Assembly: GCA_036172245.1 (NCBI GenBank)
Contig: JAYWIR010000018.1
Location: forward strand, 3,286,001 to 3,350,000
DNA: 64,000 nt
Direction: 5' to 3'
Source of the DNA: Raillietiella orientalis
Lineage: Eukaryota
Of this stretch, positions 5,901 to 60,599 are shown one piece after another (the stretch's first letter is position 1; every line of letters starts with the position of its first letter). The translations under genes were made by a program, and so were the position numbers. A model generated the notes under the pieces. That model saw only the letters and a list, made by a program, of their open reading frames with translations. It searched no databases and was not told the origin of the DNA.

Positions 5901-8174
5901 AGTCGTTGCGTCGTTGATCTCCCGCAAAACGAAGGTGGGAGGAAGAAAGTGTCCTTGCATTGGAATAACGCAGCTGAGACGATCCCCTCTCATCGTCCTG
6001 CGATTTGATGGAACAATCCGAATCTTCTAGACAAACGGTGGATCCAACTTTACGCTGACCGCGATCACGACATTACATTCATCTTTGTGGGGAAGTCTTC
6101 ATAGTTTTCTTTTCTTTTTTTGATAAGGTAAGGGCAGGGAAAATTCCCGTAAATGAAGATGCATGATGAATTTGCTGAGGAATCTGCGTGTTTCGTCTTC
6201 CCAGTGTAAGACTCGCCCGCGACTTTTCGAGGAGTGCTCATTCCAATCTGCGGGTCGTAGACCTAGTACCCGAATCACACTACAGGAACAAATACCCTCT
6301 TATCAGCTCCCGCAGCAAACCCAATTGGACCTGTACGGTCTGAAGGGTGAATCCCCTGATTGTGATGAAAGGCATGGCAGCGGCAGGCATGGAAGGCACG
6401 CGACGTGGTTTTCCGATGATTAATTGCTCGAAACGGATCTAGAGATTTCAGTGTCTTCTTTCGAGTGTTACGAGGGGGTCACGGGATGATGAGGTCCATG
6501 CAATGCACGCAAACCTCTGCTTCTAAATCTTCAGTGCGTCAAGGTTAGTGTTCCTGGCTCTTGTCTTCGTTTGAAACAGCCATGGCGATTGAGCCGGCGA
6601 ACGGCAGGAAGGATTCGAAAAGCAAGTTCGCTGTCAAAGTGATCACTGGTTGGGTGTGCACTTGGATTCGTACCTACGTACACGTGCACGCATGTACACA
6701 GATCACTTGCAATGAAGTCTTGTAATTCCCACTTTTGTTTGTTTGTTTAGCATATGCATACGTTTCGCTGCATTGTGGATCGCTCCATTGGTAGCTGATT
6801 CCGGTTCGAGTCTCGTGTGTCCAGGCGTTCTCTCCCAGCACCGGCGGTAGAGATGCAATTTGTACGAAAGTCTTTTGTCTTGGGTTGATGTGCACCGATT
6901 GCGAAGAGCGAGAGAACACAGGGGTGGGAAAACATGTCTTGATTCTTGCTGTCTTGATGGCAGATAATTTCCAAGGACAGCGGTCTCTACCTTTGCGGCT
7001 GCTGAGGACGGACTCCCTGTTGTGTGAAGCCAACTTGATTTCTTCTGCACATTACCTGTTTTCCCTGAGGGAGCCTAGGAGTATGAGTCCTTCATCTTAG
7101 TCGCTAATCTCTTCACAGATCTTTTCGCGTCCCAGTTAAGCGCGACGGCTCTCATCGCTCTCGTCCCGTTTTTGAGAGCCGCGGTTCTACTTTCCACAAG
7201 CAGCAAATGCTCCTGTTCCTCCCACAGATATAACTCCATTTGCTTCATTTCCTACAGCATTATATGCTGTTCGAAAATGCTCCGCAGCATCAGATTACAG
7301 AAACTGATCAGAGGGACTTTGGAAACGCCGTTTTCATAGTACCCGAATCTTCGGTACGCCGACTGATGTTCCTTATTCTGTTGGCTTTTTTTTCATCAGA
7401 ACGATGGGCACGAAAAGATCTTTAAAAAATTCTCTCTTCTTCCAATATTGCCCTTCAGAGGTGCTCCTGTTCTCGTGTAGGGATCAGGACTACAGCTTCA
7501 AGCAGACAGTGAGAATTTTCCCTTGTGGACAGCAGATATTCATTCCTCGTGGTTGTCATAGATGACGTGGAAAGGTTCTCGCAGTTCCACGTCAAATGCA
7601 TCGTCTAAAGTCGGGGCAAAACGGATTCTGTTTTCTTTCAATTCTTTTTATACATGTTTTACAGGAGCTTTGCTTCATTCTTTGCTAGGCCATCCACTTC
7701 AATAAGAGATTCTCTCGTTCTTGCGTCCATCCTGCAAACAAGGTGGAAATTCTTCAAAGAGGATTCGTAGGCATGAAAGCATGTTTTCTCATAGTATGAC
7801 TCTCTTTGTTAAGTCAAAAAGCGGTTCACTGTACCAATTGAGTTCACCCTCGTCTCACAAGCTGCAATTATCGGATTCCCATGTTTCGATCGTGCTCTGC
7901 GAAATCCCTTGATCTGGGAACCGTCTGGATCGCTTAAGCGTGATCGTTTTCTTCGATTCCATTGCTTAGAAGATTTGGCTTTGGAACGTTCGACATAAAT
8001 GGACGCAGTTCAAACTGAGAGCTGATTCCAGGGTGTCGAAACAGAATGTGGGGTAAAGAGTCCTACCACACCATTCTAAAGGATTGATCGACGAGATTAG
8101 TCTTAAGCATCGCCACGCGTGACTCTTTCTTTGAGATTCTGTTTATTTCACTATTTCTATAAGTGATCTTTTTT

Positions 8175-8209
8175 TTTTTTTCTGATCAGGAAGAAAGAAT
8201 CATTCATTA
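8175..8209. repeat. Perfect 35-bp direct repeat (target-site-duplication-like), left copy
   Basis: tttttttctgatcaggaagaaagaatcattcatta is identical to 8953-8987. Confidence 0.92.
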
Positions 8210-8952
8210 GTAAGCCCGCGTCGGAGGCCGTGTGGTTACGGTGGTCTCCGCGCGCGTGGCACCACCAAGCGTCGTGGGTCCCGAGTTCACCGCACAAGAT
8301 GACGTTGGTTGGCCTACATTCATCCGGTTGCAGCATTAGTAGCGGTTTAAACCGGATGCTCCCGATGAGGGCCGGGACAAATGGGAGTCGACCTCCGGGT
8401 CCTTCCAGGAATCAAGGAGTGAGAGCTCCCCTCCGGTTGTGAAGGAGCGGACCCTTCATTCTGGGGGGATCTTCCGCGTCGTACTGATGGAGTAGGTGTG
8501 TCGCCACCGCCTCTCCAGAGAGTGCAGAGAAGCGAGCCGATTTTATCGGGGAATTCGGAGCTTCTGAATGTCGGAAGCGTCCCTTCTGGGTTCTCTTCAG
8601 AGGAGTGAAAACAGGATGGGATCCCTTCCGGGTTCCCTTCAGAGAAGAAAAACTGGAGCGGACCCCTCCAAGGGTCTCTTCGGACAGAATAAGGAAGATT
8701 TCCCTTCGGGATTCCCCTTCGGAGACAACCAGGATGGAGGTGATCCCCATTTCCGGGGATCCCTCCCCAGGAGTGAGAGGGACGGACTCCGAGTCCCTCC
8801 TGGATTCATAGGGAGGACTAATCCCGGGGTACCCTCTATCTGGAAGACTACCCACCTTCGGGTGGTGTGGAACCGTGTCGAAGAACTGCGGAGGCAGAAA
8901 AGGATTTCCATCATCCATTTCCATCATGATTTCTGTAAATGACGTTTGTTTG
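8210..8952 (+). ncRNA. Insertion of an unidentified, highly structured GC-rich RNA-like sequence with a U-rich 3' end (putative retrocopy)
   Basis: Sharp GC rise relative to the flanks. More than a dozen adjacent stems, e.g. catccggtt/aaccggatg, ggagg-gatcccc/ggggatc-cctcc, gagggac/gtccctc, tggagtaggt/gcctctcca and ccacc-TTCG-ggtgg. Ends in tttgtttg plus T7. Bounded by a perfect 35-bp direct repeat. Identity and strand are inferred. Confidence 0.5.
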
Positions 8953-8987
8953 TTTTTTTCTGATCAGGAAGAAAGAATCATTCATTA
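8953..8987. repeat. Perfect 35-bp direct repeat, right copy
   Basis: Identical to 8175-8209. Confidence 0.92.
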
Positions 8988-11649
8988 ATGTGAAGAGAGC
9001 TATCAAAGAATACTTTGATGAATTTTCATTTGAGAAACCCGCCGAGAGGTTTTTCAATGAGCAACTCAGTAATCCATCATAGTTTTCGGCTTTTGGGATG
9101 AAGGTGATCAATTCCAAACGCGGTACGGTCATCTCTTCCTGGTTTATGGTGTTTCAGAGGCGTGCCGCCAATATACAGCACGCTTACAGCGTCAAATTGC
9201 TCTCTTTTTTTTTTTTTTTTTTGTCATATTCGCAAGCTGCGTCTTGCCGTATTGCTTGGGTAGGCGACGCTGCTGTCACTTCTACGTGAGTTGTAGTTGA
9301 CAGAGTAGGCAAAGGAACGTAGGTATCTGGAATATTATGGTTTTATGAATTGCACGAACGTCCCTATGAACCAAAAGACGATGTTGGATCAATTTTTGGA
9401 CAGCAAGTTGCCAGCGCAGCTGATTTCAAAGAAAGAAATCAATTTGCAATAAGGTGTACCAGCAAGGTATCGCAGCTTTGGGATGTTGATTGAAAATATT
9501 TCACAATATCCTTGTAGACTCATTCCCCACGCTCTTTCTTCCTTGGAGAGACAATAGGAGTGAAAAGCTCCAGTTCCAATTGATTTCTCCGTTTTTGTTG
9601 TTCATAGTCCTAATTGTGTCCATCTTAATGGAACTCTGTTCACGGGTTTCAAGCTAAGACAGCGCTAGGAAAGAGATGTCTACAGATGTCATCTTGTTAT
9701 GAAGTCGGCAAGGTCCCCCAAAATTTCTTACTCTAAACTAACGAGATCCCTCTATTAAATGAGATTGTGCTGTATATTTCGTGTCGTGGCACAGAAGGAA
9801 CCCTAATTGCTTTCTTCGTCACGCATTGGATCCGGAGCTTTAAAGCAGCTTTTGTGTTCTTGCTTTCCCTGCAAGAAAGAGCACACTAAACTTCATGATG
9901 AAAGTCTGCCACTAATTCTGATAGAACATACCGATCACGGAGCTTTCCAGAGCGGCGAAGAGGTGCAATCGAGGTGCAGTGGATCTGAGATTCATTTCGT
10001 TTCCTTTGCCAACTATTTGAAAGCGAGAGGCACATTTTAATTAATTTGGTTTGCTTTTTGTCCCTTTGGGTTGCCTTATTTTATCAGAATGCTTCAGACA
10101 AGTTATCGATGACTTTACTCAAGCTCAATGGATCCGGATGCTGGTTTCCTTTCTTGATTCTTCTGTGACTTCATTTTTTGTTTGATGCCGAGAGCCCTAT
10201 AGTAAAACCATCATGAATCACGTAGTCCATTGACTTTTGCCAGTGGAATACGCTACCTGCCTTGATATACCATTTATCAGGGACTGCGTGTGCTCCTTTT
10301 GCAAGTTTTCCTTTTCCTTTCGTAGTTTCTCATCTGTAGACGTTTGCGAAGGAAGGATGTTCTTAATTAGTTAGGAAAAAGATTAAAGTGCTAACTACTG
10401 GGTTGTAATGCTCTATTCTCTGATACAATTCATTTATGTACTCATGTGGACACTGTAACAGCCGTAGAAGGTGCAATTCCTGAAAATTTTCTGAAAGAAC
10501 AAACCAACTTAGTCTTTCGAGATTGGCTTCCGTTTTCTTTTGGTGGGAACTGATATCAAGAGGTAGTCATGCGGAGCTACTGAGAGATCAAAGCTATATT
10601 TTCGGAATGAAAGGGGTTGCTTCTGGATCATGATAAATCAGATCAGACCCCTTACTTGATTAAGCAATTGGCAGTCTGTTCCTGACTCTTTGTTTCTGTT
10701 TCTCTTAGACGAGGTCGTTCAACTGCTCCCACCTTCCGTTTACACATATATACAGTGAGTTGAGGATGTAACTTTTTCGTCAGCTCGCTGACTTCTCAAG
10801 AAACAAGGATTCAACATCGCAGAATGAATGTCGGGTCCTTTTCGGTCAAAAACTCTGATAATGAATTTTGTGCAGAGTGAAGTTGATCACTCTTCCTGCT
10901 GCACCTACTTAAGAAGAATTCCAAGGCGTATCCCTGTATTCTCTGGATTAAAACAGCATTTCTCGAAAGTATCAGATTTCTTCTTAATTATCCCATGAGT
11001 TTATATTATTTCCAGTCACCGTGATCTCAAGCACCAATGCGACCGAAGTATCCAAACATAAATTTAATCCTCTGCTTGAGACTAAGTGCTCATCTCTTCC
11101 ATCTCATACATCTTCTCCATTATAAACAGTTATTTCTTGGAAAGTTCTTTTTAAAAACATTCACTGCTCATAAGAAACCGCATGCAATGGTACTTTCGTT
11201 GTTCCTTCCTTCATTTGTTAAGAAAAAGCAGTGCAATTCTTTGCAATTTCTCAGTAAGGGTAGTTCGTTGTCCCTACCTTCTTCCTAATGTCCGATCCTT
11301 CTTATAAAAAGGTTACTTACGAATCGAAAACTTATCCCGGAGGGTTGCACTGGCAAAGAATGCACGGATTTCAGCCTCATTCACGGATTCACGGATTTTG
11401 GCTGACGCGAAGTTCAGGTTTATTACTGGTCATTAAGGTTAAGGTTAGGGGTAACGTTTACTTACTACACACATGAGTCTTCTGCTACACGTAATATTTC
11501 ACATACTATTGACTTGCATATTGGGAAAAAAGAAAAAGAAAAATGAACTACTCATCAGTCGGTCGTTCATTGTTTTTTTTTTTTAAAATAAAAGGAAAAA
11601 ATCAGAAAAAAAAAAAAAACCTTTAGTCGGTGGTGCCGCTCATCACGTG

Positions 11650-29679: not shown

Positions 29680-31810
29680 TTTCAGCCGCGTTGCGCGTGA
29701 GGGAGGGAAAGGCGACACAGATTGAAAAATCAACAAAGGAAATATCTCTTCCTCAGAGGGATCCGATTCATACAGGGGCGAAATACAGGGGTGAGGAGAG
29801 AGGAGGGGTTGCAAATCATCGCCCAGCAGCTACGGTCTCTTACTACGAGGTCTCTTACACGTTATTTCTAACGAATCAGCTGGGGAAGGCGCACGGACTA
29901 TCGTTAGACCAGTCCAGGTATGGCTGGGGTAGAGCTTAGGGAGATTTTCCGATTGGTAATAAAGGACGAGGAGACGAGGAAAGAGAGATGCGCGCTCCGC
30001 GAAGGCGAACCGAAGAACTGATAGTTTCCGGGAGAGGTTTACACCTAGCCACGTATATTTAGGTGCAAATCTGCGTTCTGAAAAGACATATACAAAAACT
30101 TCATCAGCCTCAGCGGATGGTAATTATCGAAAACGTGCCAGATGACCGGAATGGATGCACGTCACTCCGGGAAGTAGTGGAGTTGGATCCGACGCTACTG
30201 AAGCGGAGAAGACAAGAGAGAAGGAGGGGAAAGAGGACCTTCAGTAAGGGAATGAACCAAGTAGAGCTGCGAAAGCTTTCTTATGGAGAAGAAAGCTGCT
30301 CCTGAATATTCGATGAACTGCCCCTTGCAGATGATCCGGTTCCGCCGCTCTCCTGTAGGAGAGCGGGGTGACTGAAGAGATGCTCCTTCTTCCTTGGAAG
30401 ATCATGGAAGAAGAAGAAGACTAGAGGGAAAAGGGTCCGGATTCTGGAAGCAAAGGGCTCTGTGGACGAAGAACAAACTGCAAAGACGCACGCTAGCTGG
30501 GCGCACTGTCGTTTCCCTCATCTCAGATGTGGTGAGCAAGTGATAAATCAACACGTGCAAGAACGTCGAGGCTTACTCTGATGCAAACCCGCTGGGACCG
30601 GACCCTCGTGAGGGAGCGGATAGGGAGGAGTGGAGGACAAATGGACAAATGAGTAAGTGCACAGGGAAAAAGACTGCTTCTCGTTGTTGATGGATCCCAT
30701 GGGTCCGCGCTGAGAAAGGTTTTCCTCCTGGTTGCTCTGGGAATTTTATTCACAGGTAGACAAACACGCAGGGCAGCAGTACCCGAGTTACTGATGAAAT
30801 GTTTACTCAGGAACTGCCCATTGTACGGTTGGTGCGGCAGAGGGGGAGGCCAAAAGGTGTTAGAGTGGAATATTTCTAGTAATAATAGCAGAAAACTCAT
30901 ACACTAATAATAGGAAGATGGGAAAGAAGGGCCACCAAGGACTTTTGGTCCCTTCATCTCTTGCATGATATGCTCCTTCAGTCCTAGGGTAACTGACCAT
31001 ATCCATGTACTCCTTCACTCCTCGGAGAGAGAGGTGTAAGCTACTTCTCCTTCCTCCGAGACACGAACATGGTCTGGTAGAAGGCATACCAAACTACCTC
31101 AATGCCACGGATGCTGCACGAGATGATGATTGCAGCTTCGGTCTACGAAGGTTTATCTCAGTATGGGAAATAGGACACGAGATCCTCTTCAGTGGTGTCG
31201 TTCCTATCGGGGAGGGCTGTAGCCTTGCCTGGAAGTAGTAGAGGGAGCGCATCGCCGAACTGTGCCAGGTGTGGAGAGGAGACTTCTCCCTCCCCCTCAT
31301 AGTGCAGTGCGTTGCCCTCCAGAACTTGTGGGAACGTTTCTCTGAGTCCCTTCCTCACCCCGTGGACGATCCCAGAGACTCTTTGAGGCCTCTCTTCGTG
31401 CGGGACGCCATGACGCCCGTAGCCGCAATCGCAGCTGTGCTGCGTGCGCGGTGCCGTCTCGGCGAAGTGCGACGCCGAGAGGGGCCGGAGAGAAAGGGGG
31501 GCTATCCTGCATGCCATTCACTTCCTGCAGATAGCTTTGAGGTGGTCCCACCTGGAAAGGGAGAAGGAGGAGCTCGCCAGCATCCTTTAATGGATGCAGA
31601 GGCCTCACCCACCACGAAATAATTTTTGTTCTTTTTTTTTGTTTTTTTGTTGTTTGTCATAGTTTGTTTTCATTTTCTGTTTTTGTTTCATCCCCCTTCC
31701 CCTTCGCTTCTCCGGCCCGCTCTACTTGTAGTGTAAGAATTGGAATTGATGAGCCATCGGCTCCATCGATTTCTGTAAGAGAATAAAAGTCCCGGCGCAC
31801 CCGGGTGTGA
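29680..31810 (+). mobile_element. Tx1-like LINE array unit 1 (degenerate ORF2 C-terminus plus 3' UTR; 5' part uncertain)
   Basis: Zinc-knuckle remnant SPNCARCGEE...LIVQCVALQNLWERF, then LFVRDAMTPVAA and FLQIALRWSHLEREKEELASIL*WMQR. Followed by a T-rich UTR and AATAAA plus cccggcgcacccgggtg. Confidence 0.65.
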
Positions 31811-31811
31811 A

Positions 31812-33485
31812 ATCACAGCGCCTTTCTTCAGTCCGTCTTCGGTGGAGAAGCGCTGCAGCAGGCTGGTGGCAGTGTCTTGGCGTTGACTGAGTTCCGAAAC
31901 GAGTCTCCGCCACAAGTCCTGCAAGTCACTGCAGCCTAACAGGAGGTGCGGAAACGATTCCATCCTCTCTCCCACCTAAGACAGTAGGGGGAGACAACTC
32001 CCCTGGAAACCAGGTGTCTGCGCTGATTGCACGGAACTCCAGTACAGGAACAGTAGAACATCCTGTTTTCAAATTAGCGGAAACACGATGGTGCCCGCAC
32101 AGAGGGAAGGGACCACTACTTCTTCGAGGGGCACACCAAGAAGCCCCTAGTCAGCCTGAAGGACTTTTGCGCTCCGAGTCGCGACGAAGGCCTCGACCAT
32201 CTTGCTGAAACGCCTAAAGCGGCAGCTCCAGTGGAGGACGCTTGCCCTAATGGCGGAGTTTTCGAACACCAACTGGTGCGAGCCCGCAAGATACTTGGTC
32301 AAGCGAGCCACCGGCTACGAGAGACTGTCTTCGTTCTTGGCACGGCGACGCAGACGCAACGTGTCCAGCTGAGGACTGGAGCTTCGGCGAGTGCCAAGTT
32401 GACCGGGATCAGCAACTGGATCTTCCGACCCGCGAACAGTAGTGCCTGGATGCAGGAAACCCTTGGCACATGGGCCAAGAACAACGAAGCGAGCCCGGAG
32501 ATGCTGCAGTGACTGCTGCATCCCTTCTACAACAAACACCCATTGCAGGACGTCATCGTGCAGCCCAATAAGTGTGCGTGAGCACAAAGAACCTCTCTAG
32601 TCGCAGTACTGCCCTCCCTCAGCGAGCACTTGGGCAGTAACCAGCCGGCAGAATGGGAGGTCAGTTGTTAAATAGGTCTTTGAAAGAAGGAATTAGGTGG
32701 TTGGGCTACCGGTCAGCTCAAGGATGCTGAGACCCCCAGTGCCCCAGTGAAAAAACTATTGCTCTAGGTTGAGCTGCTGAGAACAGGAAGACTTCGAGTG
32801 GCCCCCAGCGCTGAAGAACAACCGCCTCCCCCCTGGAGTGGCAGGAGGCTGCACTTTTGCTGTGGCACTGGGCTACACTGTGCAACGCCCATTGGTCTCA
32901 CTGGATCTGGGGGGCTGTGGACCCAACTGTTGCAGGTGCAGGGAACGGTAATCCGTTTCGCAGCTGCTTGTAAACTGTGTTGTACTCCGGCTCCTGTGGT
33001 TGCGTTACGCAACGACCCTTGTGGCATCAAAGGACAATCCCATAGGCATATTGAAGTTCCTCTTGGTGCGCGATGCCGTTTCACCTGCCACATCCCTAGC
33101 AGTTCTTTTCTGCCTAAGTGGGACTGTGACGGCCTGGAGCTACACGAGAGGACGGTGCGATAGGGACGCCATCTGCTTCTCTCTGAGGTTCATGAGGACG
33201 GCAGCTAAATGGCCCTACCTGGGCCATACTCAGAGGGAACTTGCCGGCATCCTGGAAAGGATGCAGAGGACGCCCTCTAGCTCCTGGTGATCCTTTTCCC
33301 AATTTTTGTATATACTTTTTTATGTGTGTGTTTTCTACCCCCCCTCCGCTGCCGTGGCGAATCTCTTCGGCCTGCGTGCCGGTTACTCGGCAGGTTCCGA
33401 GCATTTTCGGACAAGTAGGGCCGATGACCCTACACATTCATGTTTATTTTTTATAATAAACGTCCCGGCATGACCGGGTGATAAA
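31812..33485 (+). mobile_element. Tx1-like LINE array unit 2 (5'-truncated)
   Basis: PNCCRCRER*SVSQLLVNCVVLRLLWLRY, LLVRDAVSPATSL and FMRTAAKWPYLGHTQRELAGILERMQR, then AATAAA plus cccggcatgaccgggtg. Confidence 0.7.
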
Positions 33486-40019: not shown

Positions 40020-43000
40020 AGAACGGTTTCCGCGACTTTGCAGTTCTGTCTCCGCAGGTCTTCTCTAGAAGACGCAGTAGCGTTAAAGAAGGTGGTTCCT
40101 AGTATGTTGAAAAGATCACAGTAGACTTACTAAATTTTCTTGAAGGGGTTCCGGAAAATTCTGTGCACCTCTGCGGGTCCCGAAAGGTTTCCGAAAAGGT
40201 TCACCTCTTCGGAGAGCAGTGGCGATGCGCGAGGATCAAATGGACCTTTCCACGTGCTTCTCACGAAGCTTTTGGTGCACGTATCCATCTGAAGAGCTCT
40301 TCTCCCTCCTCTGAAGTTGCCTTTTCTTCTGGAATGCTTCTAAAACTATCCCGGAAGCCCATGGCAGACGCAGCCATGGTTCCCTCGGATGAGGAGCTCG
40401 AGGCATTCCTCATCGGTTCGAAGGCGAATTGGAAGCTTTTCACGGATGGCTGCCTTCTCCTCCGCCTCTCTTCTCCCCATCCCTGGCGAATCCGTAGGAA
40501 GATCTGTACTCATCCTGAAAGGGAATTCTGCTGGAAATGTTCACTGGAACGTCTCTCTTGCCTCATTCCGAGCTCTACGCGAGGAAGGATAGGAGATGAT
40601 GCCATTCCGGATGCCCGACCACTCGAAGATTCTCGTCCTAGAACGAAGCTCTGGTTTCCCCCACTGGAGGAGCACTATCCTTCTTTGCTTCCTTGTTCTG
40701 CCCCCGATAAAAAAGAGACTTCTAAGCGAGAAGAAGTCTTTCTTGAAATGCGAAAGCAGAAGGAGTTATGGCTCGAAGACTCCATCGGACTTCATCGCTG
40801 CCCGTCTCTGGCTGAGGCGCGCGACGGAAGACACACGTGGTATCCGGACATGTGCCTGGACACAACAGAGTCCCGCGCACGACGCGCAGTTCCCGTTCAG
40901 GCGGCTGAATTTTTCCCTTTCTTGCGAGGGGACCGGGACCGCTCGCGAGAAGCTGCTCAGAGGAACTCTCTGATGACGCTTCGAAGAATTGAGGGGAAAT
41001 GCCGACGCAGATCCATCAATGAGAGTTCGCGATCCGATTATCGTTCCAGATCCTGAAGCTTACGAGAGCCTTAACGAGCGCGCGGCGTTCCCGAGAAAAG
41101 CCTCTTTCTTCCTGTTACGGTGCAGGATGGGAGCTATCCCTTTAAAAAGAGAAGGGGTGGGGAAGGAAACGGAAGGAAGCGCTCGCGCGCAAGAGCGAAT
41201 AGAGGGGAGGGGGGAAATTTTCTGCATCCCATTCTATCCTCACGACCCCTGATCTCTCCACCTCAGCTTCCTTCCGATAGCCAGTTTGGAAAAGGAGAGC
41301 TACTTTCCAAATAGACACCTCTGCATCACTGAGATCTTTCTGGTGCCCGGACCGCGAATGAAGCTGCACCTCAGGCTCTCTGCTTCCCTGCTCCTCCAAC
41401 CTTTCCCCTCCGTAATCGACTGGTACCAGAAGGGTCATCATCCCCATGTCCATTCCAGATCTTCTCAGAAGGCGCCCCTAGGATGGCGAGTCCCATACCG
41501 ACCTCCTCAGCCTGATGCTAGCAGAAGGATGCATGCATGGCGAAGGTCAGCGGCGAGCTCCCGTGTTCCCTGGATGTTCTCTCTCATGATCTCGTGGGAA
41601 CAGAGCAGGACTCGGCCGCCATACGCCATTGCGATCCGAGGATTCTGCTACATCTTAAGACATCCTTTCTCTTCCTTTTCCTCCTAGCTGCCTCCGGCCA
41701 AAGGAGGGGAAAAACAGGAAGCTCTTTTTGACTTATTCCAGACGTGGGAAGACCATGGTCCAGAGGATCAAGATGGACGGTTGAGCGCTGGTAGAGGAAG
41801 AGATGGCGGGACAAGTATGGCATCGAGAGGAGAGGCGTAGGGGAATGCCACTCCTCCGATAGGAGCACTTCAGGTCTCTATCGGATCGATGCGAGCACGG
41901 TTTGAAGAACGCGACCCTGAAGGCAGGACCTAGAACTCCATGTCTTCATGGCCACCCTCCTGCGTCGCTCTCTTTTCCCGGTTTTGGCCTTCAGCGACTA
42001 CCTTCCGTCTCTCTAAGCCATACATGCTCTATGGCACCGATACGCTCCAGGCCATTCTCGCCCGCAGAACGAGAGAGTGCTGCAGTCTCCTGAGGTCACC
42101 AGCTTATTCCGCTATCCCCACCGTAGCCCAAGGTCTCGAAGGAATCTCCCTCGACAGGAGCTTCCTTCCTAGATTTCGCTGGGCTTTGCCGTCGTCCCCT
42201 GAAGTTTTGGAGCTCTTCCTCGAGATGGGAGAAGTGGAGGCTGGCAGAAAGGAAGGAAGAGAAGCGCAGGCCGCCCATCCTGAAACTCGCTCCGATGGTC
42301 CGAGGAGGGAGGAATCGATGCGCTTCTCGTACTCCTCGGCCTTGAATTCACCTCGACGACCAAGACCAACGGTATCTTCGTCAAGGAATGAAATCCTCTG
42401 CCTCCCTTCGCTTCTTCGAATTCCCTCAGGAACCCTCGGCAATGCTCCACGAAGCCATAACTCCTGAGGGTTTTTTCGAGAACCGTCCGGGTTTCGCCGA
42501 GTGTCTTCCTTCCTCTTTCTGGAAGAGTCTGAATTCCCCCAGACTCTCATTCCTCGATCCTGTTCCCTCCTCTCCTTTCCCTGTTTTCAGCCCTCTTTTT
42601 CCCTTGGTCGGCAGCATTGAGTTCCCGGATCGCCTCAGGTCTGAACGGAGAGTTCCTCGTGGCGCCATCCCTTCCCTCTATTGACTCTCAGTGCGCGGGG
42701 GATCAATCGAGAACTACGGGAGGGAGGGGTCCTCTTCTGCTTCTGCTCTGGGAATGGGTCCACGCGGGACTTCGCCTCCCTGGGAATCGCGGCCTCCATA
42801 CCTGCACCGTGCCAGCTTCTTCTGAGATCCGGCAACATCTGAAGTCGAATCTTTCCGTTTTACTGGCAACTGACCTTCTGTTTCGATGGTGGGAGATGCT
42901 CGATACTCGCACCTACTTGGTGCTCTCTGGGAGTGCGAAGAGCCTGCTGCTCTCCAGCACAGTAGCTCCAGCCGAGGGAAAGCCTCGCTTCAGGCGCAAA

Positions 43001-44699: not shown

Positions 44700-45800
44700 A
44701 CTCCGCCATCTTCTCTGCCTTGGCTTGCTGATATGAGAAGTCTTTGCGTAAATTTGTTTACTTTGGTGAAGTAAGTTTTTTTTTTTTTTTTACACCAGAC
44801 AGGAAGCACAGTTTGTGGATGGACAGTTTGATTTTGGTACATTTTGGCTCATCTTCTTTTCAGCGATGTGGATGGGATGCTTTGAAAACAATGCATGGTT
44901 GTATCTAGCAATGCACTCTCAGAAGAAATAGGATGTTTTCGTCATTCTTGGAATCTTTCGTGCCTGTTCCTGATACGGAGGCAGACAGAAAATCTTCCCG
45001 ATCGTTGGGACAGTATCGCGGATCTTGGAGTCATAGCAGACTCGATCATCACCGTCCATTTCAAATGTTTTGCTACCTCTCAGAGCTGCCACCGATCCGT
45101 GCTCCCGGATCGGGTGTTTTTTTCCTTGCAATGGAAACAGGTCAAGAAGACCGTCATACTCGAGCTTGACCATTTCTCAAGTAGTACTCTCTTTTGCTCA
45201 TTATGAAGAGTCCCGCTAGTTTTCACCTATCAGGCACGTTTTCCAGACTAAGATGCGTCTTTCCTTTTTGCACACGGATGAGTATTCTTTGTGTTTCCTT
45301 TGCAGAAACATCCGGTGCCTTGTAGAGTAAGGGGACTGGACTCCACAACACATGCAATTCACTTTCGTCACTTTCCATCTAAAACCATCCTCGAAAATTC
45401 TGATGGAGCGTCTGAATCAGATATTTCTTCCTCGCGAAGAGGAAGCTTTATCTGGTCAGCTGACCTCTGAGTCTCGAAGCCGAGGTCTTCCTGTCGACAG
45501 CGAGGGTTTTCGCGGTTGATACTAGCCTGTTGGCTGAAGTTTCGGCGCAGCGCCGTTCTTCTAGAGATCTATTTTGTTGTTGTCTTCTGACGATTCGACT
45601 ATTTGGGATTGCGCTCGATCGTTTGGAGATACTCGACTCGATGGGTCCAATAAGTGTCCGTGTTGTGTCAGATGTTGAACAGCATCATCATCTGGTTCGC
45701 GTGTGGTCTAGGAATTCCCAGATCTTGAAAAACATCGTTCTGTCCAGCATTCCGAAGAAACGAAGAGCATCTCTCGACTCATCGATTTTTGATTTTCGAA
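44700..45800 (-). mobile_element. RLE-type RT fragment (paralogue of 49400-49730)
   Basis: Shared nucleotides ctagagatct.ttttgttgttgtcttctg...gctcgatc and catctggttcg.gtgtggtctaggaatt. Confidence 0.45.
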
Positions 45801-48299: not shown

Positions 48300-51200
48300 G
48301 AATCAAGATCCGTGGTCGGTAAGAAGACTTTCAGCCAAGAGTGTCCTCCAGCTGGACAAGGAAAGTCCTTATCTCATTCTTCAATGCGTCTATCGAGAAA
48401 AACCTCTCGGTTCGACGGATTCTGTCACCATCCTTCCAGTCATCTCGACCACTTGTTCTTCGAGGAGCACTTGGTCCTTATTTCCTGTCTGTTTCCTGAA
48501 ATTCCACTTCCTTCGAATTGGGATTCTTTTCTGATCTTCTACCAAAGGATGGATTTTGCCTTCAGATTCCTCGATCTTCATAAGCAACGCGTGCCAAGGC
48601 AACGAAGACTGTCTAGAGATGAGATGACTAATGCATGCTGGGAATGCGAAAAGCGAAAGGAACGAAACGGCAACCCAAATCCTTCTATTTTCTCCCTGGT
48701 CTATCAGTTCCTCTACCTTGACGAACACGTGAGTTTGCAAGTGGGAGGGCGAGGCAAATTGAAATCGATCCTACTTCAGGATGGAGTGTGAGCTGCATCC
48801 GTTCGGAAAGGAACCACGGTGAACGTATGGAGGGGACACGGTAAGATCACTCCTCCAATGCGGAGATAGTCTGGAAACTTTGTGTTTTCCTTCGAGACTT
48901 TGTCACCTACGAGCTGCAGCAGCCGGAACCTCAAGAGCTCGGTCCTCTCTCTCCATATCCCTCCTACCTCTTTCTCATCCCTTAGCTTCCGGAAGGGTTT
49001 AGCAGTCGAGATTTCTTGCAAGAACACACCCTTTCCAGGCACTTCCATTTTCTGTGGCAGTTCGAACAGGGTCATTTTCTTTCATTTTCAAATTTGCAAA
49101 GGAATGCAAAAGTGCTTGGGAACGGTACTGAGATCCTTAAGACGAAGTGACCATGAGATGCAGGATGTTTTCTTCACAGATGAAGAGGTCTCCCATAGTT
49201 AAAGGAGGGGAAGAGTGACTTTCACCATCGGCACTTTAGAGTGACCTGTTCTGAAGAACATTGTCTAGGGAACTGAGTCTTTTCAGGTTCCGGATTCGTA
49301 AGCCAGAAGGCTTGGCAGAACTCCGCTTCATTGGAAGATGTATCTTTCACTTGGAGTGAGGAGAGGAGGTGACATATCCCCAAATCAGACTAGGAAAGGG
49401 GAGATTCGTAGTTTTCCCTATTCAAAACCGTGTGCCAGAGAGTGAGGTTCCGTTGACTGCGGTCAACCTTTGACCTCCGTCGCTTGGCACAGAATGTTTT
49501 CATAATTGAGCTTTGCCTGTTTGCTGGGGTTTTGGCGTCGCACCTTTCTAGAGATCTTTTTTGTTGTTGTCTTCTGGGGACTCGACTATCTGGAATTTGC
49601 TCGATCTTTGGGGGATGACCTAGCTGATGCATCCAGCTGGTGCCTGTGCTGTGTCGGATGTTAAAAAGCACCATCATACTCGAGCATGATCATCTGGTTC
49701 GTGTGTGGTCTAGGAATTTTCAGCTCTTGTAGAGAGCCGCCGTTCTCCTCTGGCCTATGCAGCAACATCCAGTGCTCCTGGCAAGGAGCCTGCTTTTCTG
49801 AATGAGTCTTCTGACAATTCGATCTTCGGAATCAGTTATTTCTTCCTTTTGTTTGAACAGTGCCTTGGTGCTCAACTGACAGCATGCAGCTTTGCTCGTC
49901 GTGGACTGGGGTTTACTGAACAAGAGTGCGGACAGTGCTGGACTCAGGGAAGCGTCTTCTCGAACTGAGCAATATGCAGGGAACTGGAGGCGCTCCGGAA
50001 CCTGTTCTGAACTGAGATGCTCTCCGGAGCAGTTGGAAACGCCTCTCGACTGCATTGCTTTTCTTTGAAAACACCCCGAGGGATCTGTTCCTGCTCTTCA
50101 AGCATGAAGAGCTCTTGCCTGTGTTCTGATCTCAATCTTTTATTGCATCCAGAAGGATCTTGGTTTTCTGCTGCGTTCAGGATATGCTTCAGAAAGACGG
50201 AAAGCCATACGCCTCGGCTCCTCGGTGATCAAGCACATGACGAAGTGGCCCCACCTAAAACAAAGAATGAGGGAGAACGCTGCCAGCAGCGAACGCAGGT
50301 TGTAGAAGATGTGACGGGTGTACTTGGTGACTCCTTTCTTTTCCTTTCTTAGTTATTTATTTCATTTATTATATTTTCCCTTTAACCTTCCGGACGAGAT
50401 GAGTGGGTGCTTCATCTCTTCCCAAACTATAACTGTCCCTTAGAATTGATCTTATATTTCGCATGTTTATTTTTCTTGGAAAACACAAGCTCTCGTGTGA
50501 CCTCGTAACAGCTAGACAGAATTCCCATTTTCTATGAGTTTCCTTTTTGATACATTCCGCCAAGGTGTCATGTCTCCTGCCATAGAGACGAAAGTGCCGC
50601 ACACAATGCTTTCGGATGTATGGCAGTCCGCTCAGGGTGACAGTGGCAAACACGAAACAGTCAACAAGAGGAAATCAAATCGGTGTCTAATGAGATGAGG
50701 ATTCCATGACACGCAAAGCCTATGTGTTCTACGCGTTTGCAAAACTCTCAGATGGAGGAAAAGTTTTTATACGGAAGTTCTGAAATGTTTTTCCCATACC
50801 TAAGATCTTTCAACCTCATTCAAAGAGAAAGATGTAAAGATTAGACTGCATTTGCATCCTTCGCCAGCAAATGCAACACGAGTGTCAAGTCCGAAGAGCC
50901 CTAGAAACACCATCGTTATTGCTCTTGTTGCTGTTTCATCACATAAAAGCAATGTTTGAAGTTTAAAAGTCTGTTTGTTGCCTTTTCCATCCAAACCCGA
51001 GCAGTTCCGGAAAGGTTACGTGGGAAAAAAAACGGCAACGCTTTGGAAGTGTTTTTCCTGAGAGGAGAATTAAAGAGAAGACAAGGAGTTGGAAGAGTTT
51101 GTTGGCATTAGTTGTCTATCGAGAGAACGTAAGCATTGCATAGGAAGAAAATGGCGGGATCTTTGCATTTTTAATTACCTTCCTCCTTTTGCTCTTCGAG

Positions 51201-55600: not shown

Positions 55601-57000
55601 GGTACCGATGAAGGGAGTGCTCGTGGTGAACCACAGATCCGTGGCTTCTCACGGAGTCGATCATACCGCTGCTTCCCCGTATAAGCTCGCCCTCTGGGGC
55701 GCTCCCAAGCGGAGGTGCGTCCTGCTTGAAAATTGCATGAAAATTAGAGAGACCAAAAGTTCTCATTCTGCTTTCCGGCATTCCGAAGGCGCGTCTACTC
55801 CCTTCTAGAGGCTTAGCCTTCCCCTTGGATAGTTGCAAAAAGCGACGTTTAGATCAGCCGGCTGCCATTTAAGCGGTCGCTCACAGAGTGGCGAGACTTG
55901 CCCAGGAGCACAAGCCGCTCTCGACAGAGACCAGGTTGGAGCCCCGGAGGAATTAGTATTCATCACATCGTGTACCTTGCTGGACCGTTGACCTTGGTCT
56001 CCAAGGTGATTCGAGTCCGAGGAAAGCGAGGGGCGTGTCGATTTCACCTCAGACTGTTGGGGCGTGTTGCAGAATGAGCGGTCTGCCCCTTCTCTTCCTT
56101 CCTCTCTGCCAGCTTCTACTCTCTCCTCCCGGAAAAGAGCTCTCGAACTTCAAGGACGCCTCGCAAAACCGATGGAGAGAACTTCTGTCGGAAGAGACTT
56201 CCTCTATCCTCTTCGGCTATGGTGGCAGCAGCAGAATAAGCTGGTGGCCTCTGGCGACCGCAGCGCTCTCTCCTCGTTCTCCTAGTGAGGGTGACCGGGA
56301 GTGTCTCGGTGGCGCCGCTTTGCCACAGAGCATGGATCGAAAAGATAGAGGGGAACCTCTCTGGTGGCTCCTCCCCCTCCGCTGCCCTTCCTGAGCCATT
56401 TCCGGTGCGGGTAGCAAAGGGAGACCTGCGCCGCTGCTTCCGCCCCCTCTGTTCCTCGAAAGCTGCCCCTGAGAGCGCTTCTCAAGGAACGAAGCGTCTT
56501 CTCAGTCGGACCGTGAGGCCTACCAGGAGGACGCTGGCAGGTTACTTGCGGTGGCGGCAGTCGGCGGAGGAACAGGGAAACGGATGGGACGCTGTCGTCA
56601 GGTCGATCCAGGGACTATAGCCGCTTATACATGGACCCGGTCCTTTTGCTTTCCTTCCCTCTTTGCTGCCTTTTCGTCGCTTATAATCCTTCCCTTCCCC
56701 TTCATCACCTTCATGTTCGCCAGCAAGGATCGGGGAGAGGAAAAGTAAGGGTGAGGGGTAATAGCATAAGAGACTTCCATCTTCCCTCGCTCCGAAACAG
56801 ACATCAGAAGTCCAGGGAAGAAAGGAGGAAAGGTAGGAACGGCGACCGAATGAATCAGGGCACCCGATGCCACAGGACGGACACGTTTTGTCCTATGGGA
56901 AAGCCAGAGGTTCATTAGCGAATGGCTGCTCACTTTCCGAGATACCCCTGTTTTTCCAACATCTCCCTCATTCTCAGAGAAGTTTCATTCCTTCCAGAAG
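52630..57000. mobile_element. Mixed-orientation L1/Tx1-like ORF2 relics
   Basis: Knuckle-like STCGS..QSAHSL (minus, ~52900) and FLLSRCG...RICGEGGEFGSHAF (plus, ~55230-55350). Region 56070-56250 is an inverted homologue of 42095-42290. Confidence 0.4.
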
Positions 57001-58654: not shown

Positions 58655-59950
58655 TCACAGGTCGGTTTCCAGGAACCGCAAACACCTCTGCGAGTCGGCG
58701 TCGGGGATTGCCGCCGCCGCCTCCAGCAGCTCTAGCTGCGGCTGCGCAGTCGGCGACGCCTGCGGGATCTTTCGGGAGGAGCCAGCGGTCTGCGTCCTGC
58801 TCGCGACCGACCTCGTGTAGGCCGTCCCCGTCCTCTGGCTCCTGGTGGTCTTCCCATCGTCCGTGGAGGTCTTCACCCATCTGGAGAACAGGTGCTGAAG
58901 GCGCAGCATCTTCTTGAATTCCTTCCGAAAGTTGTCGTTGAGCCAGCCGTATAGGACCGGGTTGAGACATGCAGAGGACATGCCCAGTAGGTGGCACAAT
59001 GCAAAGATGAGGTTTCTCTTTTCCACATGCCTGTTGAAGTAGGGGGCGTAACAGCAGTCCAGGAGGAGATTGAACAGGTTGAGGGGCATCCAACACACTC
59101 CGAAGATGACGGAGATGAGGATCAGCAGCACATTGATCCGCCTGACCCTCTCGTCCTCCTTTCTCTTCCGCCTCAGGGAATTGGTTCTCACGTGGTTCGA
59201 CAGTCTCTTCTGCAGTTTACAGCAAATCCTGACGTAACTGATGCTTACAATGAGCACGGGGATCACATACTGGAAGATCATCGAGAACAGGGAGTAGTAC
59301 GCTCTCCCACCGGGAATGGACCACTTCTCCACGCAAAAGATCAGCTGCAGATGCCCGTGGCCCCTGATGTGGACTGTCTCCTGGACTGTAACCCTGTTCA
59401 GCCCCAGGGGCAGGGAGAGAAGGATGGCGATAATCCAAGTGGCAGTTATAGTAGTCCACGACCCCGAAGAGTGGATGGACATCTTGGCGTTCGCCACAAT
59501 GGCGTGGTATCGGTCCACAGCAATGGCAGTGATATTCATGGTGGAGAGGAAGATACTCATGGCCTCCATGGATCCGATAAATTTGCACATGAAATCTCCA
59601 AAGTTCCAGAACTTCCTGACGATCTCGATGAAGGTGAATGGCATGGTGAAGGTGCACAGGAGAATGTCCGAGATGGCGAGGTTCAGGATGAAGTAGTTGC
59701 GGGCCGTGCGCATCCCAGGATTCTGAATGAGGGCACCAATCACCATCAAGTTTCCCATTGTCCCGAAGAGAATAAGCAACGTGTACAGGGTCACCAGGAC
59801 GGAGAAGGCCTCGTCGGACACGCGTTGGTCGCTGATTGCTTTGGCCAGCATGGACGACTCGTGGCCGTCTACAGCAGCGGCGCCGCCCAGGCGCCCAGGC
59901 GATGAGGACGATGGAGAGATGGCGCTGCTGCGGTTCGCGCCGAACTCCAT
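58655..59950 (-). CDS. NPFR: Neuropeptide F (NPY-family) receptor, class A GPCR, coding region uninterrupted, 431 aa from first in-frame ATG
   Basis: Seven hydrophobic segments. Motifs GN (TM1), MRTARNYFILNLAISDILLCTFTMPFT (TM2, closely matches insect NPFR), DRY, CWMPLN (TM6) and CHLLGMSSACLNPVLYGWLNDNFRKEF (TM7/helix 8). The ORF-track start at 60046 is GTG. The first ATG is at 59950 in gccATGg context, followed by an NRS sequon. An in-frame TAG lies at 60055-60053. Confidence 0.93.
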   Translation of the reverse strand: MEFGANRSSAISPSSSSPGRLGGAAAVDGHESSMLAKAISDQRVSDEAFSVLVTLYTLLILFGTMGNLMVIGALIQNPGMRTARNYFILNLAISDILLCTFTMPFTFIEIVRKFWNFGDFMCKFIGSMEAMSIFLSTMNITAIAVDRYHAIVANAKMSIHSSGSWTTITATWIIAILLSLPLGLNRVTVQETVHIRGHGHLQLIFCVEKWSIPGGRAYYSLFSMIFQYVIPVLIVSISYVRICCKLQKRLSNHVRTNSLRRKRKEDERVRRINVLLILISVIFGVCWMPLNLFNLLLDCCYAPYFNRHVEKRNLIFALCHLLGMSSACLNPVLYGWLNDNFRKEFKKMLRLQHLFSRWVKTSTDDGKTTRSQRTGTAYTRSVASRTQTAGSSRKIPQASPTAQPQLELLEAAAAIPDADSQRCLRFLETDL

Positions 59951-60018
59951 GGCGACCAAACGCTGCTGCTGTGGGTGCTCCGTGGCGCCGGCACCGGAGG
60001 CAGCAGCGGCGCCTCCGT

Positions 60019-60048
60019 TCACGACGATGCCCGCGTTTGCTCGCACAT
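60019..60048 (-). promoter_or_regulatory. Short upstream ORF (MCEQTRASS*) in the putative NPFR 5' leader, just after a candidate splice acceptor
   Basis: ATG TGC GAG CAA ACG CGG GCA TCG TCG TGA on the minus strand, preceded by cttgtcccgatcccgccctag (pyrimidine-rich, ending in AG). Confidence 0.35.
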
Positions 60049-60599
60049 GCCGCTAGGGCGGGATCGGGACAAGTAGTGCGGCTCCAAGCGAGGGAGCGAC
60101 CGCGCTTCCCAGTCCGCGCCTCCCCAGTTGGCATGCGCACGTGGGGGACGTTCTCTCTCATATTTCGCTCGTCCAGGGAAGTCTCGCTACCACTGTCCCT
60201 GCTTCTGGGAACCTCTCGACGGCGAGTCGGCAGAAAGAGACCGGAGTGCGTCTGTGCTGAGCGCCTCGTCCCTTTCTCAGGCTTCAAGCAGGCGCACGAA
60301 CTGGAGGAACTGCTTTCCCTTCGAAAATGTCTTTTTCTCTCTTCTTCTCTGAGCTTTCTATGACTGCCTTCTGCTTCGAGTTCTTCTCACTTGGCTTTCA
60401 AAAGATGCGACCTAAGAAATAAGACATAGGAGAAGAAGGAAAAGCAGAGCAATAAAAGAGCAGCTCGTTTCTTGGTGAGAAATCCTGTGCAACATCTCCA
60501 AGGAGACAGTCCGAGGTAAAAACCTTTTCTCACCTTGATAACTCGTTCCTTTCTTTTTTTTTTTTCTTTTTCTCTTCATCTACTTGGCTTCTCGGAATC

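What the first reader, a model, noticed from the sequence alone, without database searches (positions are those of the whole stretch)
8175..8987. Young insertion of an unidentified ~740-nt, densely structured RNA between perfect 35-bp direct repeats
Seen: a GC-rich 743-bp block in AT-rich DNA is flanked by two identical 35-mers. It consists almost wholly of adjacent hairpins with G-U-compatible stems, two cUUCGg tetraloops (~8703, ~8856), possible long-range pairings (cttccag ~8402 with ctggaag ~8840; cctccg ~8392 with cggagg ~8889) and a 3' tttgtttg-T7 tail. Its ORFs resemble nothing I recognise. Known: cUUCGg loops and G-U pairs are typical of functional RNAs, and oligo-U ends mark Pol III transcripts. 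Inference: this is a recent retro-copy of a large structured RNA. Candidates are a novel Pol III ncRNA, a divergent 7SK/MRP/telomerase RNA, a retrozyme or viroid-like RNA, or an rDNA spacer (the insert begins right after TCATTA, which is also how 18S rRNA ends before ITS1). I could not find canonical RNase P/MRP or hammerhead cores by eye.
Basis: partly seen in the sequence, partly recalled or inferred. Interest (0 to 1): 0.78.

Follow-up and report, generated by a model that had tools for sequence, protein, structure and literature searches.

The report
Hairpin-rich SINE copy, probably self-primed
This stretch is one worn copy of a common non-coding jumping-gene family (a tRNA-headed SINE) in an animal genome, not a new RNA gene; the unusual part is that the ends of most copies suggest the RNA primed its own reverse transcription from a terminal hairpin.

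Summary
The perfect 35-mers and the folding are real, but the block is a copy of a dispersed tRNA-headed SINE family (at least 104 exact tail-motif hits in the host genome). The element is 8214-8916: tRNA-like head (first B box deleted), a body of ~42-nt hairpin units, then 44 of the family's ~60-nt tail minus its last hairpin and poly(A). It is not shown to be young (6.0% from consensus, best sibling 91%). The 'oligo-U tail' is duplicated target DNA: the repeat runs 57/59 nt at 88-90%. Host ITS1/ITS2, Rfam families and hammerhead cores do not match; stems decay strand-symmetrically across 51 copies. The scan had already noted this family on other DNA of this genome as SINE-like with a hairpin array. 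New here: 52 of 60 motif-picked copies stop at the base of the terminal hairpin without poly(A) and almost always without TSD, 2 of 60 are full-tailed, and 9 copies carry the hairpin's 3' arm inverted at that point, the product expected if the U-ended RNA snaps back and primes its own cDNA (inferred, about 55%).

The parts
8153..8209 (+). Left copy of the target duplication (57 nt; its last 35 nt, 8175-8209, are the perfect repeat). Host sequence, single-copy site.
   Evidence: flank 8953-9400 has only itself and the left 35-mer as matches in the genome
8210..8213 (+). 4-nt non-family filler at the 5' junction
   Evidence: family consensus starts at 8214
8214..8292 (+). tRNA-like head: A-box-like motif at 8226-8238; the ~39-nt segment holding the family's first B box is deleted (deletion shared with L004 and L008); a second degenerate B-like box at 8277-8289 remains
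   Evidence: alignment; consensus head 62-65% to host tRNA-Thr/Ser/Gly, score reached by 1 of 200 shuffles; this copy's head not significant, 22 of 200. A/B-box labels are from recalled consensus.
8293..8899 (+). Non-coding body: degenerate array of ~41-42-nt units, each a purine-rich linker plus a short GC hairpin, several capped by cUUCGg; subfamilies differ by gain or loss of whole units
   Evidence: autocorrelation peaks at 41/42/81/83 nt, units displayed, subfamily alignment; TRF does not call the array
8900..8916 (+). First part of the conserved family tail (small hairpin A). The copy stops here, at the base of the terminal hairpin B; hairpin B, its T-run and the poly(A) of full-length copies are absent
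8917..8928 (+). 12-nt junction filler: imperfect tandem repeat of the element's last 13 nt, with microhomology to the start of the target duplication
   Evidence: sequence; similar direct or inverted tail repeats at junctions of L002, L005, L014, L175, L003, L224, L237, L241
8929..8987 (+). Right copy of the target duplication (59 nt): 24 nt with 6-7 differences, then the perfect 35-mer (8953-8987).

Best explanation
A decayed, 3'-truncated copy of a tRNA-headed SINE family. SHOWN: dispersed copies with one 5' start, a tRNA-like head, a ~42-nt hairpin-unit body, and a ~60-nt tail (hairpin A, hairpin B, T-run) kept across subfamilies of ~780 and ~1040 nt; full-tailed copies carry poly(A) and 9-14-nt A-rich TSDs. 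INFERRED: source copies are transcribed by Pol III from the head, end at the T-run after hairpin B, and borrow the RT of a LINE. Two routes follow. Route A (minority): the RNA is polyadenylated and inserted by ordinary target-primed reverse transcription. Route B (majority, including this copy): the U-ended 3' arm of hairpin B is already paired, the RT extends it and copies the RNA from the base of the hairpin to the 5' end; the RNA primer is usually lost, and the free cDNA is joined into a DNA break by end-joining, leaving no poly(A), usually no TSD, and short fillers. When second-strand synthesis runs on into the RNA primer, hairpin B's 3' arm is fixed in inverted orientation. SINE identity about 0.9; route B for the family about 0.55; for this copy, which has a long duplication and junction microhomology, route B with a staggered break and target-primed internal initiation with slippage are about equally likely. 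The folding is inherited from the palindromic units of the family, not maintained at this locus.
For: Copy number: 72 + 32 exact tail-motif hits, reversed-pattern controls 0. Head; no TTTT on the + strand of the 781-nt reference against 4 on the - strand. Route A: poly(A) in 12 of 14 and TSD score >=9 in 8 of 14 full-tailed copies, null 1 of 28. Route B: of 60 copies picked only by a motif upstream of hairpin B, 52 stop at its base, 3 inverted, 3 partial, 2 full; TSD in 2 of 48 base-stop rows, null 0 of 96 (6 of the 48 rows are duplicates or mis-anchored, and L096 with a 54-nt TSD was missed by that scan). Nine distinct inverted copies (L004, L080, L090, L153, L156, L157, L180, L183, L250) join at consensus 739-741 through 2-5 A (the complement of a short U tail, not of poly(A)), stop in or near the loop, and include both loop types, so they are recurrent events. 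The two common polymorphisms in hairpin B keep + strand pairing (C-G 18 / U-G 10; U-A 8 / U-G 10). Neutral decay of stems: private C>T 174 vs G>A 178 in 170 pairs over 51 copies.
Against: No RNA or Pol III data. The tRNA similarity is modest, fits three tRNAs about equally, and the Rfam tRNA model did not hit an intact head. No partner LINE shares the tail (30 RT loci and 6 3' ends; 20 ends of a second family). TSDs of 8 nt or less cannot be told from chance, so a LINE that makes short TSDs could give base-stop copies. A fold-back of plus-strand DNA would leave the same inverted junction. This copy has a long duplication, which free-cDNA capture does not predict, and its 35 perfect nt hint at a younger age than 5-6% (about 3.7 differences expected). 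This copy keeps more pairs than most (16 kept, 12 broken, rank 2 of 51). Full-tailed copies were mostly found with a hairpin query, so the route ratio holds for the short subfamily only.
Confidence: 0.86

Rival explanations
1. Same SINE, but base-stop copies arise by target-primed reverse transcription that starts inside the RNA (the 'tailless' or template-choice route), or on an RNA cleaved at the base of hairpin B, by a LINE that leaves short or no TSDs; inverted arms are a rare side product.
For: This copy and L096 have long duplications (57/59 and 54 nt) that begin with microhomology to the RNA end; tail repeats at junctions resemble RT slippage; both LINE families examined lack poly(A) and end in a hairpin followed by CC, as base-stop copies often do. 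PMC4476161 (passages) describes non-random 3' truncation of snRNA copies by this route.
Against: In PMC4476161 70-100% of such copies have TSDs; here 2 of 48 rows do. It does not explain a junction of the U tail with position 739-741 in 9 independent copies.
Confidence: 0.35
2. A recent retro-copy of a functional cellular structured RNA (novel Pol III ncRNA, divergent 7SK, MRP or telomerase RNA), or a SINE copy exapted as a structured RNA at this locus.
For: z -4.8 on +; four cUUCGg on + and none on -; this copy keeps pairing better than 49 of 50 others and lost - strand folding; 35 perfect nt of repeat.
Against: At least 104 copies in a star-like cloud 3-8% from one consensus; symmetric stem decay; one compensatory change in this copy; no Rfam hit at gathering score; this copy lacks the first B box and the terminator. 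Rank 2 of 51 is expected after the copy was picked for looking folded.
Confidence: 0.06
3. A displaced rDNA spacer, or a retrozyme or viroid-like RNA.
For: TCATTA before the insert; GC-rich hairpins.
Against: Host ITS1 and ITS2 do not match; no hammerhead core on + and no ribozyme family in Rfam at E<=10; no LTR-like repeats shared between copies.
Confidence: 0.02

Closest known systems
tRNA-derived SINEs, head / body of unknown origin / tail (SINEBase, PMC3531059; Definitions section read, other passages seen)
   Same: Interspersed, non-coding, tRNA-like head, at least 100 copies, subfamilies differing by internal indels, A tail and TSD in full-length copies.
   Different: Longer than the 75-662 nt range given there (about 780 and 1040 nt); body is a ~42-nt hairpin-unit array; most copies lack the tail's last hairpin, poly(A) and TSD; partner LINE not found.
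Self-primed retrocopies: human U3 pseudogenes (Bernstein 1983, seen as a passage and reference in PMC1687206), BC1 RNA self-priming (Shen 1997, title and one passage in PMC11482611; paper not held), Alu self-priming from a 3' U tract (passages in PMC10760644, PMC11485995, PMC3820591)
   Same: A Pol III-type or small RNA whose own 3' end primes reverse transcription and gives copies cut at a fixed point.
   Different: Here the evidence is a genomic footprint only, the primer is a dedicated terminal hairpin, and inverted primer remnants survive in some copies; nothing was tested biochemically.
Tailless retropseudogenes and 3'-truncated snRNA pseudogenes mobilised by L1 (PMC4476161, passages)
   Same: 5'-intact, 3'-truncated at a preferred site, junction microhomology, no poly(A).
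   Different: Those mostly carry TSDs and an L1 nick consensus and derive from cellular RNAs; these mostly lack detectable TSDs.

Membership tests
tRNA-derived SINE (SINEBase) | Short (<1 kb) interspersed, non-tandem repeat | tested here: met
   703 nt here, ~780 nt full length, on many contigs; the long subfamily (~1040 nt) slightly exceeds 1 kb
tRNA-derived SINE (SINEBase) | At least 100 copies | tested here: met
   72 + 32 exact hits of two non-overlapping tail-motif variants, controls 0; a lower bound
tRNA-derived SINE (SINEBase) | At least 60% identity to a tRNA over at least 60 nt | tested here: met
   Consensus head 49/76 (64%) to host tRNA-Thr(AGT), 62-65% to Ser and Gly, against 26 distinct host tRNAs; 1 of 200 shuffles reach the score. 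Marginal; the window copy alone is not significant (22 of 200); Rfam tRNA model no hit
tRNA-derived SINE (SINEBase) | Non-autonomous, no coding capacity | tested here: met
   0 of 2 longest ORFs hit Pfam; frequent indels across copies
tRNA-derived SINE (SINEBase) | Retroposition hallmarks (A tail, TSD) | tested here: met
   Family level: poly(A) 12 of 14, TSD 8 of 14 full-tailed copies. This copy: duplication present, poly(A) absent
tRNA-derived SINE (SINEBase) | [quoted passage not shown] | not testable with these tools
   Indirect only: A/B-like boxes, no internal TTTT on +, T-run after hairpin B
tRNA-derived SINE (SINEBase) | Depends on a partner LINE (shared 3' end or poly(A) recognition) | tested here: inconclusive
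   No shared tail with two LINE families; RT search scored 150 of 3358 candidates, so other clades were not seen
SINE superfamilies with conserved central domains (CORE, V, Deu/Nin, Meta, Inv) | Shared central domain | not tested
   No domain sequences were fetched; supplements of PMC3531059 not opened
Self-primed retroposon (U3 or BC1 type) | Copies end where the RNA's own 3' end would prime | tested here: met
   52 of 60 stop at the base of hairpin B; 9 copies keep the inverted primer arm
Self-primed retroposon (U3 or BC1 type) | RNA yields cDNA without added primer | not testable with these tools
   needs an in vitro RT assay
rDNA internal transcribed spacer | Homology to host ITS1 or ITS2 | tested here: not met
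   (L221, L218); ETS and IGS not examined
Retrozyme / hammerhead RNA | Hammerhead core within LTR-like repeats | tested here: not met
   no CUGANGA on +, one on -; no ribozyme family in Rfam at E<=10; repeats are locus-specific
7SK, RNase MRP/P, telomerase RNA | Match to family covariance model; few-copy gene | tested here: not met
   at least 104 copies; no CCTAA template on either strand (the TTAGG telomere motif is recalled and assumed)

The most novel reading that the evidence does not exclude
A SINE family whose main route into the genome is not target-primed: its U-ended terminal hairpin acts as a built-in primer, a LINE RT makes free cDNA, and break repair inserts it, with inverted primer arms preserved as direct fossils of the RNA-DNA hybrid. 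The same family is in turn a preferred landing site of a Tx1-like LINE.
Probability: 0.5. Interest if true: 0.62.

Novelty: new variant of a known kind. Interest (0 to 1): 0.34.

Why it matters
As a candidate new RNA gene it does not hold. As a family it offers a clean, countable footprint for an old question: whether SINE RNAs can integrate after priming their own reverse transcription. The passages I saw report self-priming for U3, BC1 and Alu as a proposal or as cDNA synthesis; a family with 52 of 60 copies cut at the primer hairpin and recurrent inverted primer remnants gives a defined substrate (hairpin B with a 2-4 U end) for a direct assay. Three paper searches on self-priming and one on BC1 listed nothing that, by title or abstract start, describes this footprint in an invertebrate SINE; the library lacks most subscription papers and repeat databases were not searchable.

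Tried and rejected
Twin priming or internal inversion in L077, L078, L082: rejected; they are tail-to-tail pairs of two different copies, arms 74-84% alike. Hammerhead or HDV-like reading of the body and tail: looked for by eye and by motif, not supported. First LINE family as partner by shared tail: no match. Helitron-type ends: considered because of CTAG and a hairpin, dropped since full-length copies have poly(A) and TSDs. Selection on body stems: not found. Micro-exon reading of the 35-mer (acceptor, 20 nt, GTAAG donor): noted, not testable; no gene model was built. Expression: no RNA holder listed, so no reads were laid. Metagenome scan with a tail motif: 0 matches. Earlier-findings look-up by sequence: nothing. 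Shen 1997 (PMC146617) not held. PMC6007223: abstract and outline only, not used. Searches: listings only, apart from PMC4494074 (passages). No supplements were opened; SINEBase domain alignments there could bear on the body's origin.

Full report
1. Observation. The window holds two identical 35-mers at 8175-8209 and 8953-8987. The repeat extends leftwards: 8153-8209 aligns with 8929-8987 at 52-53 of 59 columns, all differences in the first 24 nt. The tttgtttg-T7 stretch is therefore the second copy of the host T-tract. The 743-nt block folds better than shuffles on + (z -4.8, 0 of 20) and weakly on - (z -2.0). With local folding the copy gives -4.2/-1.8, the family reference -4.1/-3.7, and 12 GC-rich control stretches on both strands gave 23 values above -2.1 and one at -5.6. 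Rfam gave 10 matches at E<=10, none at gathering score. Four cUUCGg motifs lie on +, none on -.

2. It is a dispersed repeat. The host genome (210 Mb, 491 contigs; an animal, by a rhodopsin-type GPCR gene in the window; the taxon was not determined) gave 2998 first-look candidates, 40 scored, 39 further long matches at 77-89%. Two exact tail motifs hit 72 and 32 places, reversed controls 0. Thirty copies give a 740-nt consensus that maps to 8214-8916. The copy is 6.0% from it (others 3.0-7.8%), ranks 46 of 51 for private changes, and its best partner is 89.9% or 91.1% among 29 more copies. No near-identical sibling was seen, but searches score only the best candidates. The perfect 35 nt argue mildly for a younger age than 5-6%; the age is open, and 'young' is not shown. 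The target site is single-copy.

3. Anatomy. Head: A- and B-box-like motifs (labels recalled); 62-65% identity to host tRNA-Thr, Ser and Gly among 26 distinct tRNAs, score reached by 1 of 200 shuffles; the Rfam tRNA model did not hit an intact head. This copy, like L004 and L008, lacks ~39 nt with the first B box. Body: ~41-42-nt periodicity, each unit a purine linker plus a GC hairpin; TRF does not call it. The lead for this array came from earlier scan notes and I re-tested it. Longer (~1040 nt) and older subfamilies (65-80% alike) differ by whole units. Tail: ~60 nt kept across subfamilies, folding into small hairpin A and hairpin B, then a T-run and an A-run. The + strand of the 781-nt reference has no TTTT, the - strand four, as expected for a Pol III template.

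4. The structure is inherited, not locally maintained. On 170 consensus pairs over 51 copies, private C>T (kept as G-U) and G>A (broken) changes are 174 and 178; alleles shared by five or more copies keep 25 pairs and break 31. This copy keeps 16 and breaks 12, rank 2 of 51, which runs against my reading but is expected for a copy chosen because it looked folded. The 8856 loop and both long-range pairings depend on changes found in 0-3 of 50 other copies. In hairpin B the two common polymorphisms keep + strand pairing, while a third (C opposite A in 5 of 29) does not.

5. Alternatives. Host ITS1 (L221) and ITS2 (L218) do not match; ETS/IGS were not examined. No hammerhead core on + and no telomerase-type template motif.

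6. How copies were inserted. Full-tailed copies show poly(A) in 12 of 14 and TSDs in 8 of 14 (null 1 of 28), mostly starting with A's: ordinary target priming by an L1-type enzyme (inference). They are the minority. Of 60 copies picked by motifs upstream of hairpin B (30 of 72 and 30 of 32 hits fetched), 52 stop at its base, 3 carry its 3' arm inverted, 3 stop near its loop, 2 are full (first set). Base-stop rows have a TSD in 2 of 48 (null 0 of 96; 6 rows are duplicates or mis-anchored; L096, with a 54-nt TSD, was missed). Nine distinct copies have the inverted arm joined at consensus 739-741 through 2-5 A and ending in or near the loop, with both loop types. That junction links the RNA's U tail to the first base below the hairpin, which is the product of snap-back priming; L1-type twin priming predicts other junctions. 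Junction fillers that repeat or invert the element's last bases (this copy, L002, L003, L005, L175, L224, L237, L241) fit end-joining of a free end. All mechanism steps are inferred. Precedents seen as passages: U3 pseudogenes from self-primed reverse transcription (PMC1687206), Alu self-priming from a 3' U tract (PMC10760644, PMC11485995, PMC3820591), BC1 (title and a passage in PMC11482611). The rival is target-primed internal initiation, which gives TSDs in 70-100% of truncated human snRNA copies (PMC4476161). For this copy, with a long duplication and microhomology, the two routes cannot be separated. TSDs of 8 nt or less are undetectable here.

7. Partner LINE. The top 30 RT loci (150 of 3358 candidates scored) are one family with endonuclease and RT domains; I call it L1/Tx1-like from recalled features, untested. 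Neither it nor a second family shares the tail. The second family's 3' end is followed by this SINE's body in 5 of 20 loci (4 of 19 without the query locus), with the SINE's 5' part upstream in four, so it inserts into the SINE near consensus 659 or 592; target preference for other repeats is known in Tx1 (PMC4494074, passages).

8. Comparison and verdict. By the SINEBase definitions (PMC3531059) length, dispersion, copy number and, marginally, tRNA similarity are met; Pol III transcription and the partner are untested or open. It is longer than the 75-662 nt listed there. Earlier scan notes reached a SINE-like reading on other copies in this genome; they are not independent evidence. The summaries I saw did not mention the terminal hairpin, the two end classes or the inverted arms. 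Verdict: an ordinary decayed SINE copy, in a family that is a new variant of a known kind because of its hairpin-unit body and its likely self-primed route. Interest 0.34.

Noticed in passing
L133, L140, L142, L143, L147 (and L035/L061 for the other LINE family, antisense): A Tx1-like LINE without poly(A) sits inside older copies of this SINE, same orientation, near consensus 659 or 592, in 5 of 20 loci; four more ends (L144, L146, L149, L151) enter one other shared repeat. Suggests target preference for repeats.
   Followed up: partly
L096: Second base-stop copy with a very long target duplication (54 nt, 2 mismatches) that starts with microhomology to the RNA end.
   Followed up: partly
L077, L078, L082: Tail-to-tail pairs: a 3'-truncated copy abutting a near full-length copy in the opposite orientation, arms 74-84% alike; could be priming of one RNA on another.
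   Followed up: partly
L031-L060; contigs C71, C53, C114, C33: One L1/Tx1-like family dominates the RT hits, many with open frames over 1000 aa and spaced about 5.7 kb apart as in tandem arrays; 3' ends form a hairpin with no poly(A).
   Followed up: no
window 8169-8214: The left repeat plus filler reads as T-tract, CAG, 20 nt, GTAAG, a chance or real acceptor / micro-exon / donor arrangement.
   Followed up: no
window 32144-33485: Copy of the second Tx1-like LINE family, 74.8% to L133.
   Followed up: no
window 58655-60052 (-): Uninterrupted 465-aa rhodopsin-type GPCR frame (PF00001, E 1.9e-54), neuropeptide-receptor-like by recall.
   Followed up: no
window 30001-30720 (-): Control stretch with folding z -5.6 on the - strand and -0.25 on + (8 shuffles); not examined.
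   Followed up: no
window 42035-42373 / 55984-56311 and 45525-45727 / 49515-49729: Other dispersed repeat pairs at about 70% identity.
   Followed up: no
L219, L220: Dispersed degenerate 5.8S rRNA copies; L220 has a fragment of this SINE nearby.
   Followed up: no
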